64,000 nt of DNA from Escherichia coli (GTDB lineage Bacteria; Pseudomonadota; Gammaproteobacteria; Enterobacterales; Enterobacteriaceae). Of the stretch, positions 42,001 through 48,000 are shown one piece after another (position 1 is the first letter of the stretch; each line of letters begins with the position of its first letter). The position numbers were made by a program. The stretch is from the NCBI RefSeq assembly GCF_016026235.1, contig NZ_CP065613.1. The stretch is one strand, 5' to 3'.

Positions 42001-45000
42001 CACAAAATCACGCCTGAACAACCACAACGGGCTGAAACATTCGTACGGATAGCCGTCACGCAGGTAAATGACTCGCTGCGTTTCAGACTCCCAGCGTATA
42101 ACGTGGACACGACGCCCCCTTCCGTCACGGAACCAGCGATTGAGGACTTGCATAAATTACCCGTAAACATTGTCACACCTTCCAGCCAGTAGCCTGAAAC
42201 AGGCCCATTCTCGGGTGATACCAGCGGGTACCACGCTGAACGGCACCACACATCATGTGATGAAACGCCTTCAGAAACGGTTCCACAGCAACAATTTCAC
42301 GACGTGCCAGTAATCCATCTGGCGTCAAAAATTCATGAGTGTCTGTCGGGATGTTGTATGCATTTACAAGCGTGCGACATTTCGCATCTGACATACCGGT
42401 TTTTGCTTTCAGCTGGCGATATCCGGCATAGCCCTCTCGAATGGTACCCTTTTTGATTTGCTCAACTGTTTCGGCTACGTGGCTGATTTTTTCTTCCACC
42501 TGAGTGATCCGTTTCTGCTGACGAACAGCCTCGAGCGCCATTGCGGCCACCATTTCGATTTCGCTCATTGGTTTGCGGATCTGTTCTTCCAGTTCGCGCC
42601 AGCGATCTACCAGGCGAGCAGTGAATTCAGGACAGAGCTGTGCGACGACAATGATGCTGTCGCGCTTACCTTGTTCTCCTTCAAACAGGTAATGCTCATA
42701 TTGAACTTTAAAACCTAAGTTATTGATTCTTTCGGAAACCTCAATTTGAGGAGACCGGACAACGCCACCTTTGGCTAATGTTTCAATAGTGCGTTTCACA
42801 TTGTCATGACGCTTACCCACCAGTTCTGCGATCTCAACGCTGGTCATGGATGCTTTGTCGTTAAAAATTGCGGTGTTCACTGCCATCTCCTTACGGATAA
42901 ATTCTTTTAAGATTCCGCACATTCGTACTTGTTGGTGCCGAACCTTCCTTCAGTTATCCTTTTGATCCCTATAAACAAAAGAACCAAAGGAGGTTCGACA
43001 TGAAAGTTCAGGCCGTTGGTTTATTCTGGTTTCGCGATGCGATTCAGTATCATGAGCTCAAAAATATTTTTACTGATGCTGATGTGCTCTCCGACAGTTA
43101 CACCGAGTGGAAACACGACGCTGAAAAATTGATTAAGCGTGTCGAAAGAAGCGGGCAACGAGTTATTAAAGTTGAAGCGGATACAGCCGAGTTCATCACC
43201 TGGTGTACAAGCGAAGGCATTGGACTCAATGCCGAAGGTAGAATGCAGTTCGCATCCTTTAAGGCTTACCAACAACTTCTCAGCGAACGCTAATGTGATT
43301 GGGGCAATCGAAATTGTTGCCCCATCGTATTTAATAGTTATTTTTTCGCTCATATCACCACCATCACTTCTCATCCTCTGTGTGCGCTAAGCTTGGATGT
43401 GTATATGGAATGTTCGGATCCAGATGGCAGAGAATGGCAACATCCTCCGGAACGCCCCGCGTTTTCCACTTTCCAACTCCCTGACTACCACGAGGCTTTC
43501 CTTTCTTTGGGAACCTGCGGCCAATAGCGGCATTGGTTTTAAATTGAGTTTTTAATATTTCATAAAGGGTCATTCTTTAGCCTCACACCGGATACTCTGT
43601 TATCCAAGAATGTTAAACATGAGAATCCAAAGTATCAAGATATTCTGTTACTTTAGTATCAGCAGCCATGAAAGGAGAAGAAAAATGAAATCTTTAGGTG
43701 AACGGCTAATCAACGCACGACAAAAAGCTGGGTTAACGCAAGATGCGTTGGCTAAAAAAGCAGGGGTCACCAGAGTTGCAATCAGTAAAGCCGAGCAAGG
43801 CCTTACAAAAAGTTTCAACGGTGACACCCTTTTTAAAGTCGCAGCTGCACTGCAGTGTTCACCGCAGTGGCTTCAGAACGGAGATGAGAAAGGTAAGCAT
43901 TGGGAAAATAATGTTAAGAGTTGCCCCCAGAGGGACACAGCACACTCTTACCCTGTAATTAACTGGGTTCAGGCAGGATTATTCACAACTGCAGGTGATG
44001 ACTACAACATGTATGATCAGGATAACTGGAGGCATTCTGTAAAATACGCTGGTGAGAGGGGGTTCTGGCTGGAAGTGCACGGAGACTCAATGACTTCGCC
44101 TATAGGAATAACATTTCCTGAAGGAATGTCGATCCTTGTCAACCCAGATAAAGAAGTTTTTTCAGGGTGTTACGTCATTGCCAGAAAAAAATCCACCAAT
44201 GAAGCAACATTCAAAAAATATATTTCTGAAATGGGAAAGGCGTTTCTAAAGCCCCTTAATCCACAATACCCAATCATAGAAATGGACAATGATTGCGAAA
44301 TAGTAGGCGTTGTGGTTGATGCCAGATGGGATATTTTCTGACCAGATACAAAATACAAAAAGAAACCTAAGTATCAAAAACACTTGCAACACCTTGATAC
44401 CTTAGTTACCATAAAACAAAGTTCGTAACTGAGGTATCATCTCATGATCAATAAAGCTACAACTCTTGACTGTCTCGAAGAACTGAAAAACCTCGGCAGC
44501 CTCATTACACTAATAGCAAAAGCAACGGCAGATGCTACGCTCTCTAGCGATATAGAGTCATGCGCAGGACTGGCATGGGATATGACAAATAGCATATCCA
44601 GAAAGCTATCGTCAGCAATGCTTTTACAGAACAAAAATTCTGCAATCAACAACCGCCTTCGCACCCAACGCGAAGCCTGCGGCTTAACAACAGCCGAACT
44701 CGCCAGGCTGCTCGATCTCGATGAAGAAATTATCATCCAGTGGGAGAGCGGAGAGTATGAACCAACTATCAGTATGCTTATCCCACTGGCAAATATTCTT
44801 GGCTGCGATCCGATGTGGCTGTTAACTGGTGAGGTTACTCCTCCGGAGCAACCAAAAAGTGAGGAGCAGCAACACCATGACGCATCTCAATAAGTTTGCC
44901 CCTTATCTCGCGAAGCTCTTCTACGGAAGAACCAATACCAATGGTGACATAATCGCCGCTTCGCCCCTCAAGGTACATGCGAACATTTTTATCAATCATT

Positions 45001-48000
45001 GCGGAAACAGTCTCAATATGAAAACACTTCTGAGACTCGCTATATAGCAGAACATATAAGTCAGCTGAGGAAGCCATGAAAAAGTTCGAAAACATAACTG
45101 TTCTCCATGTTGATGACTTTGATTATACAAACCCGGAACTTCTCCCGGAGGTTGTAAAGGCAATAGATGTTGCCGATATAGTGATTAGAGGAAAGAGAAT
45201 TGTCAAAAACAGGCTCGCATGTACTTCAGGAGCAATGACAGAAACAACCTCACAGCAAGATGATTGGAGCCTGATTCATTTGCGGTAAATGTTTATCATT
45301 TATTGCATGCAACACAGGTGTTACATACGTCCAGTAATAACGAAACAAAAACACTTGGCAGTGAAATTCTGAATTTTGCATGTGAATATGCAAAAACCGC
45401 TGTTGAAAAAGAATTAGCGCAATAACAACAAATATGCCCTGAACGTTTATTGCGGTTTTATCGCCGGGGATTGTTACAACCTTAATCCACAGGAGGCTTT
45501 ATTATGACTTTTATAAAGAATATGGCATCACACAAGACCGCCAGCCTTATTGCACAATACGGTGAAAATTACATGCATATTGCCTGCTTATTTCTGCGTA
45601 AAGCATACGGGAAATAACAAATGACACATGAACCCATTAATACATATCGTCGCCGTATAGCTGTTGCGGCACTCCATCGAATAAAACGTAAAACAGGTAG
45701 TGATCTGCTTATTGTTGACCTTCTGGATGGGAACATTACGACCATAGAAATAACAGAACAGTTTATAAACCAGTTGCTGTTGCGCTTTGAAGGTATTACC
45801 CGTGGTGAATTGGGTCGAGTGGAGGGTGAAACAGAAATCCGAACTGCATACCAGAATGCTATCGGGATTAATCAACATACTGAATACCAGGCTGAAACCG
45901 GAAAGTTAATTATAGACAACCTTTTACAAGAGGTTATTGATTACGCGAAAGAAAAATATATCAGCGGAGGAATTAACTGATGGCTAATTTATCCCCTGTA
46001 TCTGTTGTGCACGAAAAAGTGCAGATCGTTATGACAATTGAAAATGGCCAGGTAACAGATGTCTGCAAAGTCCGCGATGGAGAGCTGATTGCCAGCATGG
46101 ATACATTCATACGGCTGGCAGAAAGAGCGGGGTATCAGATAACAGCACCTGCTCAGGAGGAAACCAGTGACATTAACAGCAACACGAATTCCTGAGTGGG
46201 TCCACCAGCAGGCGTTGCTGGTCCTGCGGCGGTACAGATGCCGACGTATATTCCCGCATCGGATACAGCGCAACGGATATCTCAGTCTGAAGGTTAACCG
46301 TCGCTGGCGGCTGTTATCGAAAGACGACGGCCGGAACTGGGAAGTAATGAGTCATGAACGTTATTCGGGGGAAATAAAGAAATGATCGACAACCGCACCG
46401 CCAGCGCCATTGACCAGGCATTACAGAAACATGATACACCCGTCGGCCCGTTATTTTTTGTAACACGCCACGAAAGAACAAAAAATGCCTCACCCGAAAA
46501 ACGGCAATTCGTTACCTGGCATTCTTTATGACCACCCGCGCTTTTGAACGTTCAGGATTCCGACAACGCCATCCTGACAAGCGTTTTATCTTCAACGGGA
46601 ATGAGATATGGAAACGTGGAGAATCAACCACAGAGTATACCCGCGCACACCAGCGAACAATCAGACGACTGCGCAGACTCATCGCCAGGAAACAGTATAC
46701 AGAAAAATGGTTCAGAAAATATGACACATGGAGCGCCGGATATTACGAACTGATGGCAACAAAACCATTCTGACGTAAACGAAATTAACCATGACGCAAT
46801 TAAATAAGGCAAGCCGAATACATCAGGAGGACCATGAACATTTATTTCAGAATAGTTATATCACTGGCAATTATCGCATGTATTTACGGATTAATCGTTC
46901 CGGCCCTCATATCAATGAAGGATACGGTAGCAGTGATTTCTGGCTTTGCTCTGGCGTGTCTGACCCCGCCCTGCATTTATGCCATTTATAAGGGTCTTTC
47001 TTTCCCCAGGAGGGAAAAATGAAAAAAACAATTGCGCTTGTTTTCGCGGTCAGTCTGGCTGTCTTCGGACTTGTAGGTTGCGATCGCGTTGAACCAGGTA
47101 ATGTGGGTATCAAAGTCAACAAACTGGGCGACGACAAAGGTGTCGGTGAAGTGGTCGGTGTTGGTCGCTACTGGACTGGCTGGAATACTGAAGTTTACAT
47201 TTTCCCGACCTTCAAGCAAATGAAGACCTACGATGAACCGTTCAGTTTCCAGATGAGTGACGGCACAACCATCGGCTATCACATCGGCGTGGCCTACAAA
47301 GTTGATCCATCCAAAGTTACCACGGTGTTTCAGACTTACCGCAAAGGCGTGGATGACATTACCAACACCGACCTGCGCCAGAAGATCGCCGACGCACTCA
47401 ATCGGCTGGCCAGCAAAATGACCACCGACAAATTTATTGACGGCGGCAAGTCTGAACTACTGGATGCCGCACTTAAAGACATTCAGGAAGAGATGACACC
47501 CATCGGCATTCAGGTAATGAGCCTCTCTTATGTAGGTAAACCGGAATACCCTCCAACCGTTATCGACAGCATTAACGCCAAAGTCACGGCAAACCAGAAA
47601 ACCCTGCAGCGCGAACAGGAAGTCAAGCAACGTGAAGCGGAGGCCAACATGCTACGTGCGGAAGCTGCCGGACAGGCTGATGCCATTCGAACAAAAGCCC
47701 AGGCAGAAGCCGATGCCATTCGTTTACGCGGCGAAGCTCTACGCCAGAACCCAGGCGTCATGGAGCTGGAAGCCATCAACAAGTGGAACGGTACACTGCC
47801 GCAATACATGACCAGTGGTGTGAGGTAGCCTGAGTTTAACGGACACTCCTTCCTGAAATAGAATGGCATCAGAAGGAGCTAATAATGAGCAGAAAAACCC
47901 AACGTTACTCTAAAGAGTTCAAAGCCGAAGCTGTCAGAACGGTTCTTGAAAATCAACTTTCGATCAGTGAAGGCGCTTCCCGATTATCTCTTCCTGAAGG

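What the first reader, a model, noticed from the sequence alone, without database searches (positions are those of the whole stretch)
44444..45288. A three-ORF module at the rex position, with convergent and divergent overlaps
Directly after cI come three ORFs. The first is a 149-aa protein with an unknown 70-aa N-terminal domain fused to a Cro/C1 HTH. The second is an 86-aa minus-strand ORF whose 3' end overlaps it by 59 nt. The third is a 70-aa plus-strand ORF that overlaps the minus-strand ORF divergently by 20 nt (45076-45095), so each start codon lies inside the other gene. Each has its own SD. The slot downstream of the repressor is where lambda keeps rexAB and other phages keep exclusion systems, and the overlaps suggest antisense coupling.
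Basis: inference. Interest (0 to 1): 0.5.

Follow-up and report, generated by a model that had tools for sequence, protein, structure and literature searches.

The report
Conserved prophage early-left three-gene module
Three small overlapping genes beside a prophage's repressor gene are real and travel together in many enterobacterial prophages, but they sit where phage lambda keeps N and sieB rather than rex, their function is unknown, and two of them are shortened by mutation in this copy.

Summary
The three ORFs and both overlaps (59 nt, 20 nt) are exactly as described. All three are real genes in PHROG families of unknown function.

ORF2, on the minus strand, is missing from the RefSeq/PGAP and phage records inspected. 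It is nevertheless the best conserved of the three, with dN/dS of 0.02-0.14 in its core and 86 aa in 73 of 74 related loci.

ORF1 (149 aa) carries a nonsense codon; relatives have 167 aa. The lost tail, which is the part overlapping ORF2, shows no selection (pN/pS about 1-1.5).

ORF3 (70 aa) is the N-terminal domain of phiP27 L08 (121 aa), cut in the interdomain linker by a 16-nt deletion.

This is not the rex position. Operator-like repeats shared with OR lie between cI and ORF1. Relatives have a terminator and a strong promoter there. So ORF1 takes the place of lambda N and ORF2 the place of lambda sieB.

The invariant core is the head-to-head pair of ORF2 and the L08 N-domain. It recurs in N-containing lambdoid phages and on a groundwater contig. 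A promoter-like element for ORF2 is embedded in L08 codons.

No homology, fold or defence-database match gives a function. An exclusion role is possible but untested.

The parts
43364..43573 (-). cro-like gene (69 aa), divergent from cI
   Evidence: ORF list. Full-length match to phrog_4749. Annotated as a CDS in relatives.
43574..43684 (.). OR-type intergenic region between cro and cI, holding repeats of a GATAC...GTWA motif
   Evidence: Repeats. Exact TGATACNNNRGTWA site at 43648-43661. pR-like TTGATA-17-TAACAT on the minus strand.
43685..44341 (+). cI-type repressor (218 aa; HTH_3 plus Peptidase_S24)
   Evidence: Pfam. PGAP calls it a 'LexA family protein' in relatives.
44342..44443 (.). 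cI-ORF1 intergenic region and candidate OL/pL. Operator-like sites at 44363-44376, 44395-44408 and 44426-44439. A weak TTGCAA(44385)-17-TACCAT promoter-like element. A 15-nt inverted repeat (44395-44409 / 44425-44439) covers the ORF1 Shine-Dalgarno motif.
   Evidence: the only three exact motif copies in the 64 kb are one in OR and two here, plus a one-mismatch copy here. Relatives show a terminator, a promoter and motifs specific to their own OR at the same place.
44444..44893 (+). ORF1: Xre/Cro-C1 HTH protein of phrog_4739, shortened from 167 to 149 aa by the nonsense codon at 44891-44893. The ancestral frame runs to 44947.
   Evidence: The tail frame has pN/pS 0.95-1.5. The same truncation occurs in 5 of 55 IMG/VR relatives.
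44835..45095 (-). ORF2: conserved 86-aa alpha/beta protein (phrog_6104) of a wider unnamed family. It converges on ORF1 and diverges from ORF3/L08.
   Evidence: Homologues. dN/dS 0.016-0.14 in the core. 86 aa in 73 of 74 loci. AF2 core pLDDT about 90. First ATG plus GGAG conserved, and the second Met is absent in L008/L009.
45076..45288 (+). ORF3: the 5' part of L08 (phrog_5451, 121 aa when intact). The N-terminal domain (residues 1-about 48) is intact. The frame is lost after codon 63 through a 16-nt deletion between 45264 and 45265.
   Evidence: Alignment with phiP27, ASU11 and E. coli relatives. PHROG match. 121 aa in 63 of 74 loci, 70-71 aa in 3.
45265..45425 (+). Out-of-frame 3' remnant of L08, encoding its C-terminal two-helix domain. 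It is still open (listed as ORF 45264-45425).
   Evidence: AF2 model of intact L08 has helices 71-89 and 94-120 at pLDDT 80-92.
45178..45206 (-). Candidate ORF2 promoter embedded in L08 codons. The -35 TTGACA (45206-45201) lies in the I-V-K codons, followed by a 17-nt spacer. The -10 CACTAT (45183-45178) lies in the I-V codons. It sits about 82 nt upstream of the ORF2 ATG.
   Evidence: It is the best promoter-like match at the homologous site in 9 of 9 divergent loci. Scores of 9.5 or more occur in 3% of random 200-nt windows. The two synonymous sites that complete the -35 are T in 8/8 and C in 7/8 loci.

Best explanation
What it is (well supported). The three ORFs are the promoter-proximal genes of the prophage's leftward early operon (pL type), which runs from cI towards xis and int. 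They are not an appendix of the cI transcript.
- ORF1 is an Xre/Cro-C1 HTH regulator with a swappable N-terminal domain. It occupies the place that N has in lambda.
- ORF2 is a conserved small alpha/beta protein of an unnamed family. It is encoded antisense inside the operon, exactly where lambda keeps sieB.
- ORF3 is the N-terminal domain of L08.
- ORF2 and the L08 N-domain form an invariant head-to-head pair, which is the real unit.
- In this copy ORF1 has lost an unconstrained 18-residue tail, and L08 is split in its interdomain linker. Neither lesion hits a conserved domain.

How it probably works (inferred). In the lysogen, cI binds the operator-like repeats upstream of ORF1 and shuts the leftward promoter. 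ORF2 is then transcribed from its own promoter, which is embedded in L08 codons. Its mRNA is complementary to the L08 ribosome-binding site and first roughly 100 nt.

On induction or infection, leftward transcription runs through ORF2 in antisense and occludes its promoter. ORF1 and L08 are then made. The two partners are therefore expressed in mutually exclusive states.

The most likely role for such a pair is a prophage-expressed accessory or exclusion factor (ORF2) with an early-expressed cognate partner or antidote (L08 N-domain). That is the logic of sieB/esc. This last step is speculation.
For: Genes are real:
- Full-length PHROG matches for all three.
- ORF2 homologues in Escherichia, Salmonella and Citrobacter. 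Core dN/dS is 0.016-0.14, and 0.34-0.44 in the C-terminal part.
- L08 keeps 121 aa and its motifs at about 30-45% amino-acid identity.

Position:
- TGATACNNNRGTWA occurs exactly three times in 64 kb: once in OR and twice between cI and ORF1, with a fourth one-mismatch copy there.
- The intergenic motifs co-vary with each locus's own OR, while the ORF1 HTH domain stays nearly identical between the window and L007.
- Relatives have a terminator after cI and then TTGACA-17-TAATAT.
- In lambdoid phages L014 and L103, the ORF2 homologue converges on N. In lambda, sieB converges on N.

Core pair:
- ORF2-like and L08N-like genes are head to head, with a 20-nt overlap or an 11-31 nt gap, in five contexts: window type, L014/L103, L182 and the groundwater contig L021.

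Own promoter:
- The homologous TTGAYA-17-xAxxxT element is present in 9 of 9 loci, with supporting synonymous sites.

Unselected ORF1 tail:
- pN/pS 0.95-1.5.
- Variable tail lengths.
- The window's nonsense change is a conservative Val-to-Ile change in ORF2.
Against: - There are no expression data. The ORF2 promoter is a consensus match whose key -10 positions and four of six -35 positions are forced by the conserved I-V ... I/V-K peptide motif of L08, so it may be a by-product.
- In the window itself no terminator separates cI from ORF1. Read-through from the cI promoter into ORF1 cannot be excluded. The pL-like hexamers match only 8 of 12 positions.
- Other ORF2-family members sit in co-directional, non-immunity contexts: L016, L020 and L022.
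- L007 and phiP27 have lost ORF2 but keep L08. L08 therefore does not strictly need ORF2.
Confidence: 0.5

Rival explanations
1. First reader's model. This is a rex-like exclusion operon, co-transcribed with cI in the lysogen, with regulation through the overlaps.
For: The genes directly follow cI on the same strand, and no terminator was found between cI and ORF1 in the window. Prophages often keep exclusion genes next to the repressor; lambda rexAB is laid out that way.
Against: Operator-like repeats and a promoter-like element lie between cI and ORF1. Relatives have a terminator plus a strong promoter there. There is no similarity to RexA, RexB or any PADLOC model. None of the three proteins has a hydrophobic stretch long enough for a membrane span (read from the sequences). 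ORF2 is on the opposite strand, so it cannot be part of a cI transcript.
Confidence: 0.08
2. A purely regulatory partner-switch module. ORF1 is a DNA-binding regulator of early-left or lysis-lysogeny genes. L08 and ORF2 are small proteins that modulate such regulators by binding their accessory domains. No exclusion is involved.
For: - The L08 C-terminal helical hairpin is homologous to the N-terminal domain of the ORF1 counterparts in ASU11 and L011 (BLASTP 2e-12 and 4e-10). By eye it also matches the counterpart in L182.
- An ORF2-like domain is fused to an HTH_3 domain in P0044.
- The AF2 model of L08 shows two domains joined by a disordered linker, with a dimerisation-type hairpin.
Against: The window's own ORF1 N-domain shows no detectable similarity to the L08 C-domain: BLASTP E 1.0, hhalign E 0.096, and an HMM score no better than shuffles. 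The ORF2/L08N pair also occurs next to N with no ORF1-type HTH gene. No binding site or target is known.
Confidence: 0.2
3. ORF2 and the L08 N-domain form a toxin-antitoxin-like addiction pair, or an RNA-level antisense toggle, that stabilises the prophage.
For: The two small genes are tightly linked and co-inherited across deep divergence. Their 5' ends overlap, so the two mRNAs would be complementary. A ParE-like toxin gene lies 1 kb downstream, which shows the region accepts such cargo.
Against: Type II pairs are normally co-directional operons. There is no match to any TA family in Pfam, NCBIfam or PADLOC. ORF2 is deleted cleanly in L007 and truncated in phiP27 without loss of L08 or of the prophage.
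Confidence: 0.1
4. ORF2 is a chance antisense ORF, and only the plus strand codes.
For: PGAP annotates no gene there in the RefSeq records inspected. The phage records ASU11 and PhiR49_2 do not annotate it either.
Against: Core dN/dS is 0.016-0.14 in the ORF2 frame, against 0.9 or more in four of the five other frames; the fifth, the codon-complementary antisense frame, is also low, which is an expected by-product, and carries 3 stop codons. The length of 86 aa is kept in 73 of 74 loci. A family of 347 representatives at E < 1e-3 shares a motif. The AF2 fold is confident.
Confidence: 0.02

Closest known systems
Lambda and P22 sieB (with esc): a prophage-expressed superinfection exclusion gene
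   Same: Same slot and orientation. Lambda sieB (34482-35036, + strand) abuts and converges on N, the first pL gene, and is antisense to the pL operon. ORF2 converges on ORF1, and in phages L014 and L103 its homologue converges on N itself. P22 sieB is expressed from the prophage and aborts superinfecting relatives but not P22 itself (PMC10883804). That matches the proposed factor-plus-cognate-partner logic.
   Different: There is no sequence or fold similarity. By my own recollection, not checked with the tools, SieB is a membrane protein of about 190 aa, and Esc is an in-frame internal product of sieB rather than a separate divergent gene. ORF2 is 86 aa, soluble and alpha/beta. No exclusion phenotype is known for ORF2.
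Lambda rexA/rexB
   Same: Both lie downstream of cI on the same side of the immunity region.
   Different: Rex lies between cI and OL/pL and is co-transcribed with cI (layout). Here the operator-like sites precede ORF1. There is no homology, and ORF2 is on the other strand.
Phage phiP27 genes L10, L09 and L08; PHROGs 4739, 6104 and 5451
   Same: These are direct homologues. ORF1 is L10 / phrog_4739, ORF3 is the 5' part of L08 / phrog_5451, and ORF2 is phrog_6104. DNA identity to phiP27 is 93-95% outside the replaced cassette.
   Different: phiP27 carries a different minus-strand cassette (L09) in place of most of ORF2, leaving a 30-codon stub. All these families are labelled 'unknown function'.
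DicA / P22 C2-type Xre-family HTH regulators
   Same: The ORF1 C-terminal half is an HTH_3 domain (E 3e-11). Its best NCBIfam match is DicA (E 3e-11).
   Different: The score of 43 bits is far below the DicA cut-off of 101 bits. ORF1 has an extra variable N-terminal domain, and it is not the immunity repressor of this prophage; cI is.
Morons: independently transcribed accessory genes inserted in lambdoid operons (concept recalled from the literature, not tested here)
   Same: ORF2 is oriented against the surrounding operon and has a candidate promoter of its own. The slot is mosaic: ORF2 is swapped for another small minus-strand gene in phiP27 and L005, and deleted in L007.
   Different: There is no terminator of its own, because its 3' end overlaps ORF1. 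It is also tied to a specific partner gene across deep divergence, which is unusual for a simple moron.

Membership tests
RexAB-type exclusion system | Genes lie between cI and OL/pL and are co-transcribed with cI in the lysogen | tested here: not met
   Operator-like repeats shared with OR, and a promoter-like element, lie between cI and ORF1. Relatives have a terminator plus a strong promoter there. ORF2 is on the opposite strand.
RexAB-type exclusion system | Homology to RexA or RexB, with RexB a polytopic membrane protein | tested here: not met
   PADLOC gives only generic HTH hits for ORF1 and nothing for ORF2 or L08. No hydrophobic span is visible in the three sequences.
SieB-type exclusion (lambda, P22) | Gene antisense to the pL operon and converging on the first pL gene | tested here: met
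   Lambda layout. ORF2 converges on ORF1. ORF2 homologues converge on N in L014 and L103.
SieB-type exclusion (lambda, P22) | Sequence or fold homology to SieB | tested here: not met
   The PHROG assignment is phrog_6104, unknown function, with no other PHROG family matched at E <= 0.01. There is no significant structural neighbour.
SieB-type exclusion (lambda, P22) | Expressed from the prophage and aborts superinfecting phages | not testable with these tools
   This needs lysogen transcriptomics and plaque assays.
Xre / Cro-C1 HTH transcription factors (ORF1) | HTH_3 domain above the Pfam gathering score | tested here: met
   PF01381 scores 43.6 bits against a cut-off of 23, over residues 72-126.
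DicA equivalog (ORF1) | Score above the NCBIfam PRK09706 cut-off | tested here: not met
   43.1 bits against a cut-off of 101.
phrog_6104 and the wider ORF2 family | Full-length profile match and the shared motif V-L-L-[YW]-S-x-x-Q-x-C-F-H-I-E ... D-Y | tested here: met
   PHROG E 2e-49 over 80/80 profile positions. The motif is nearly invariant in 24 diverse members. 347 representatives at E < 1e-3.
phiP27 L08 / phrog_5451 (ORF3) | Intact two-domain protein of 121 aa | tested here: not met
   The window copy is frameshifted after codon 63 by a 16-nt deletion. Only the N-domain stays in frame.
GIY-YIG nuclease fold (considered for ORF2) | Significant structural match and conserved catalytic Tyr/Arg/Glu | tested here: not met
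Type II toxin-antitoxin pair (ORF2 plus L08N) | Co-directional bicistronic operon with a recognisable toxin or antitoxin family | tested here: not met
   The genes are divergent, and there is no TA family hit.

The most novel reading that the evidence does not exclude
The head-to-head pair of ORF2 and the L08 N-domain may be a previously unrecognised, widely distributed two-gene phage cassette. In it, each gene's promoter and ribosome-binding site lie inside the other gene. This would give a hard-wired either/or switch: ORF2 on in the lysogen, L08 on in lytic growth. ORF2 would act as a new kind of prophage-encoded exclusion or abortive-infection factor, and L08 as its early-expressed antidote. 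The ORF2 family has 347 representatives at E < 1e-3, is absent from Pfam, and is not annotated in the RefSeq records inspected.
Probability: 0.2. Interest if true: 0.6.

Novelty: new member of a known kind. Interest (0 to 1): 0.35.

Why it matters
Three points stand out.
- **A missed gene.** ORF2 is strongly conserved and evidently translated-type coding sequence, yet it is absent from every RefSeq/PGAP and phage record inspected here. It belongs to a sizeable protein family that has no name, no Pfam model and no solved structure.
- **A candidate for testing.** ORF2 sits in the slot where lambda and P22 keep an exclusion gene, and it is tied to a specific partner gene across deep divergence. 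That makes it a reasonable, cheap candidate for a new prophage-borne exclusion or regulatory function in Shiga-toxin-phage relatives such as phiP27.
- **An annotation caution.** Two of the three ORFs 'seen' in this window have boundaries set by recent mutations. One apparent gene overlap is an unselected tail.

If the pair turns out to be ordinary regulatory cargo, the result is of local interest only.

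Tried and rejected
- **Family scans.** Pfam, NCBIfam and PADLOC gave nothing for ORF2 or L08. Nine of ten distant ORF2-family members scanned also have no Pfam hit; the tenth (P0044) matches only through its fused HTH_3 domain.
- **GIY-YIG idea for ORF2.** Rejected: weak scores and the wrong conserved residues.
- **HicB-like idea for ORF2.** Considered because P0044 fuses an ORF2-like domain to an HTH. Rejected: no structural hit.
- **Is the window's ORF1 N-domain the same domain as the L08 C-domain?** Not supported by BLASTP (E 1.0), hhalign (E 0.096) or an HMM tested against shuffles (20 of 300 shuffles score as high). 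The homology holds only for the ASU11, L011 and L182 variants.
- **A CCGGGAGAAGTTCCGG palindrome plus a perfect TATAAT just upstream of ORF2** (45132-45149 and 45124-45129). It is not conserved in divergent loci and is explained by P-E...P-E codons.
- **Rfam.** No RNA family in 43000-46600 at E <= 1.
- **Literature searches** for phiP27 immunity and lambdoid hotspots found nothing on these genes.
- **A locus scan with the broad family alignment** failed because no stretch was conserved enough. Narrower scans mostly returned close E. coli relatives again.

Full report
**1. The observation**

- ORF1 is 44444-44893 (+, 149 aa).
- ORF2 is 44835-45095 (-, 86 aa).
- ORF3 is 45076-45288 (+, 70 aa).
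- The overlaps are 59 nt (convergent) and 20 nt (divergent).

ORF1 has an HTH_3 domain at residues 72-126 (Pfam E 3e-11), and nothing matches its first 70 residues. Upstream lie a cI-type repressor (43685-44341; HTH_3 plus Peptidase_S24) and a divergent cro-like gene (43364-43573).

**2. Where the region comes from**

The region is the immunity region of a phiP27-like Escherichia prophage. It is 98% identical to an E. coli O121 chromosome and 93-95% identical to Shiga-toxin phage phiP27. The prophage ends at an integrase next to yecE, cmoA and cmoB.

**3. Two of the three ORFs have mutational boundaries**

I aligned the window with seven relatives.
- *ORF1.* The ORF1 stop TAA (44891-44893) is CAA in the O121, SCU-387 and SE11 copies. 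PGAP annotates a 167-aa protein there, and the PHROG profile is also 167 positions long.
- *ORF3.* The window and the O121 copy lack 16 nt after 45264. These 16 nt are present in phiP27, ASU11 and four E. coli relatives. The intact gene is phiP27 L08 / ASU11 gp51, 121 aa, ending at window 45425. Its 3' remnant is still open in another frame (45264-45425).

I also surveyed 74 IMG/VR loci.
- ORF2 is 86 aa in 73 of them.
- L08 is 121 aa in 63 and truncated to 30-71 aa in 7.
- The ORF1 tail ends as in the window in 5 of 55 loci, and in other short forms in 9.

Neither lesion hits a conserved domain. The deletion falls in the disordered linker of L08 (AF2, residues 49-60 below pLDDT 50). It leaves a 70-aa product similar in size to the natural stand-alone N-domain proteins of other phages (60-83 aa).

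**4. Both strands code**

ORF2 is absent from the RefSeq and phage annotations inspected. It nevertheless matches phrog_6104 over the whole profile (E 2e-49). It has homologues of 57-99% identity in Escherichia, Salmonella and Citrobacter.

Nei-Gojobori estimates for the ORF2 frame, window against five divergent loci:

| Part of ORF2 | dN/dS |
|---|---|
| Non-overlapping core (codons 8-49) | 0.016-0.14 in four comparisons (0.35 against the closest relative) |
| C-terminal part | 0.34-0.44 |

Over the same nucleotides as that C-terminal part, the ORF1-tail frame gives pN/pS of 0.95-1.5. The window's nonsense change in ORF1 is a conservative Val-to-Ile change in ORF2. The 59-nt overlap (113 nt in relatives) is therefore an unselected, variable ORF1 tail lying over a constrained ORF2. 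It is not evidence of coupling.

The first ATG of ORF2 (45095) is preceded by a conserved GGAG. It is the only possible start in Salmonella loci L008 and L009, where the second Met is Ile. The 20-nt head-to-head overlap with L08 is therefore real and conserved. It is also seen in the metagenomic locus L182.

L08 evolves faster (pN/pS 0.4-0.7) but keeps its length and motifs.

**5. Position: not rex**

The motif TGATACNNNRGTWA has three exact copies in the 64-kb window. One is in OR (43648-43661). Two are between cI and ORF1 (44395-44408 and 44426-44439), and a one-mismatch copy lies at 44363-44376. These sites straddle a weak TTGCAA-17-TACCAT element and the ORF1 Shine-Dalgarno motif.

In relatives with other immunity types, the cI-ORF1 spacer shares motifs with that locus's own OR (0 to 30 of 500 shuffles reach the observed count in five of eight loci, the window included). 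Yet the ORF1 HTH domain is nearly identical between the window and L007. The sites therefore follow the repressor, not ORF1.

Several relatives have an intrinsic terminator right after cI. In L011 it is followed by TTGACA-17-TAATAT.

ORF1 is thus the first gene of a repressor-controlled leftward operon, which is the position of N. In two true lambdoid phages (L014, L103), a 43% identical ORF2 homologue lies immediately after N and converges on it. In lambda, sieB does the same. ORF2 is in the sieB slot, not the rex slot.

**6. The conserved core**

The trio of an HTH gene, a convergent ORF2 and a divergent L08 is syntenic in Salmonella, Citrobacter and divergent E. coli prophages that have different repressors.

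Across deeper divergence, the constant element is ORF2 head to head with a small protein carrying the L08 N-domain motif A-D/E-I-V-I ... V/I-K-N-R. The arrangement varies as follows:
- a 20-nt overlap in the window type and in L182;
- an 11-nt gap in L014 and L103;
- a 31-nt gap on a groundwater contig, L021.

The other domains move around.
- The C-terminal helical hairpin of L08 is homologous to the N-terminal domain of the ORF1 counterparts in ASU11 and L011 (BLASTP 2e-12 and 4e-10). It also matches the L182 counterpart, where L08 lacks this domain.
- For the window's own ORF1 N-domain this homology could not be shown.
- One family member (P0044) fuses an ORF2-like domain to an HTH_3 domain.

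The slot is mosaic. phiP27 and L005 replace most of ORF2 with another minus-strand small gene, and L007 deletes it precisely.

**7. What the proteins are**

ORF2 belongs to a family with 347 representatives at E < 1e-3. Most are 65-100 aa, and they share V-L-L-[YW]-S-x-x-Q-x-C-F-H-I-E ... D-Y. The family has no Pfam model and no solved relative.

**8. A candidate ORF2 promoter inside L08**

On the ORF2 strand, I looked for the best sigma-70-like match within 200 nt upstream of ORF2. In all nine divergent loci it falls at the homologous place.
- The -35 TTGACA or TTGATA (TTTATA in one locus) lies in the I/V-K codons.
- A 17-nt spacer follows (16 nt in one locus).
- The -10 lies in the I-V codons.
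- The element sits 82-134 nt upstream of the ORF2 ATG.

Scores of 9.5 or more occur in 3% of random 200-nt windows. Most hexamer positions are forced by the peptide motif. However, the two free synonymous sites that complete the -35 are T in 8 of 8 loci and C in 7 of 8.

If this promoter is real, the ORF2 mRNA is complementary to the ribosome-binding site and first roughly 100 nt of L08. Leftward early transcription would then run head-on into it.

**9. Interpretation**

*Shown:*
- Three real genes, with a conserved head-to-head pair.
- Operator-like sites upstream of ORF1.
- The sieB-like position of ORF2.
- An unselected ORF1 tail.
- Two truncating mutations in this copy.

*Inferred:*
- In the lysogen cI silences the leftward promoter and ORF2 is expressed from its own promoter.
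- On induction, leftward transcription expresses ORF1 and L08 and silences ORF2.

*Speculative:*
- ORF2 is an exclusion or accessory factor and the L08 N-domain is its cognate partner. This follows the logic of P22 and lambda sieB, which is prophage-expressed and spares its own phage (PMC10883804).

The main rival is a purely regulatory partner-switch module built on the shared domains. A toxin-antitoxin pair and the rex model are less likely. A spurious ORF2 is excluded.

**10. Verdict**

It is wrong in its main analogy (the rex position), and the exclusion function is untested.

The genes are already in databases as phiP27 L08 and L10 and as three PHROG families of unknown function. This is therefore a new member of a known kind, namely accessory cargo at the head of a lambdoid early-left operon. 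Its modest point of interest is the unannotated, strongly conserved ORF2 family and its fixed partner.

Noticed in passing
window 47820-49041 and 51412-52633: Two 99%-identical direct copies of an IS3-family element (transposases with rve and HTH_21 domains) bracket the prophage integrase. They clip the 3' end of the SPFH/Band-7 lipoprotein gene (47019-47828) and of the integrase (50253-51425; 390 aa against 428-437 aa in relatives). The prophage is therefore probably defective. It abuts yecE (DUF72), cmoA and cmoB at 52860-55782.
   Followed up: partly
window 45980-46385: A ParE-like toxin ORF (46167-46385, Pfam PF24732, E 7e-18) overlaps the 3' end of a 71-aa ORF (45980-46195, phrog_340). 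They may form a toxin-antitoxin pair about 1 kb downstream of the module.
   Followed up: no
L003 2395-2601, L004 2395-2601, L007 1864-2070 (equivalent to window 45235-45425): RefSeq/PGAP calls L08 as a 68-aa product starting at internal Met54. That product is only the C-terminal helical domain. Phage records call the full 121 aa. PGAP annotates no gene for ORF2 in any RefSeq record inspected.
   Followed up: partly
L002 (phiP27) 5486-6062; L005 2008-2742; L007 1700-1870: The ORF2 slot is mosaic. phiP27 and E. coli STEC308 carry a different cassette of about 500 nt with another small minus-strand gene (L09 / WP_032082696), leaving a 30-codon ORF2 stub. Strain 52F4 has ORF2 deleted exactly, so the HTH stop and the L08 start overlap as ATGA.
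   Followed up: partly
L017 2771-3268 (protein P0044): A 165-aa protein fuses an ORF2-like N-terminal domain to a C-terminal HTH_3 domain. It lies on a contig next to a tyrosine recombinase and an IS91-type transposase. This gives a domain-fusion link between the ORF2 family and Xre-type regulators.
   Followed up: partly
window 44395-44439: A 15-nt inverted repeat (TGATACCTTAGTTAC / GTAACTGAGGTATCA, 93% complementary, 15 nt apart) ends on the ORF1 Shine-Dalgarno motif. Besides serving as paired operator sites, it could form an RNA hairpin that masks the ribosome-binding site. This was not tested.
   Followed up: no
window 43000-43374: A 97-aa plus-strand ORF (43000-43293, phrog_4753, annotated in relatives) is almost entirely overlapped by a 117-aa minus-strand ORF (43021-43374). 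A terminator-like hairpin lies at 43300-43324. Whether the minus-strand ORF is real was not examined.
   Followed up: no
L016, L020, L022: Distant ORF2-family members also occur in co-directional contexts. One follows a primase-helicase (L022), and another lies near DnaB-type replication genes (L016). The family is therefore not restricted to the sieB-like slot.
   Followed up: no
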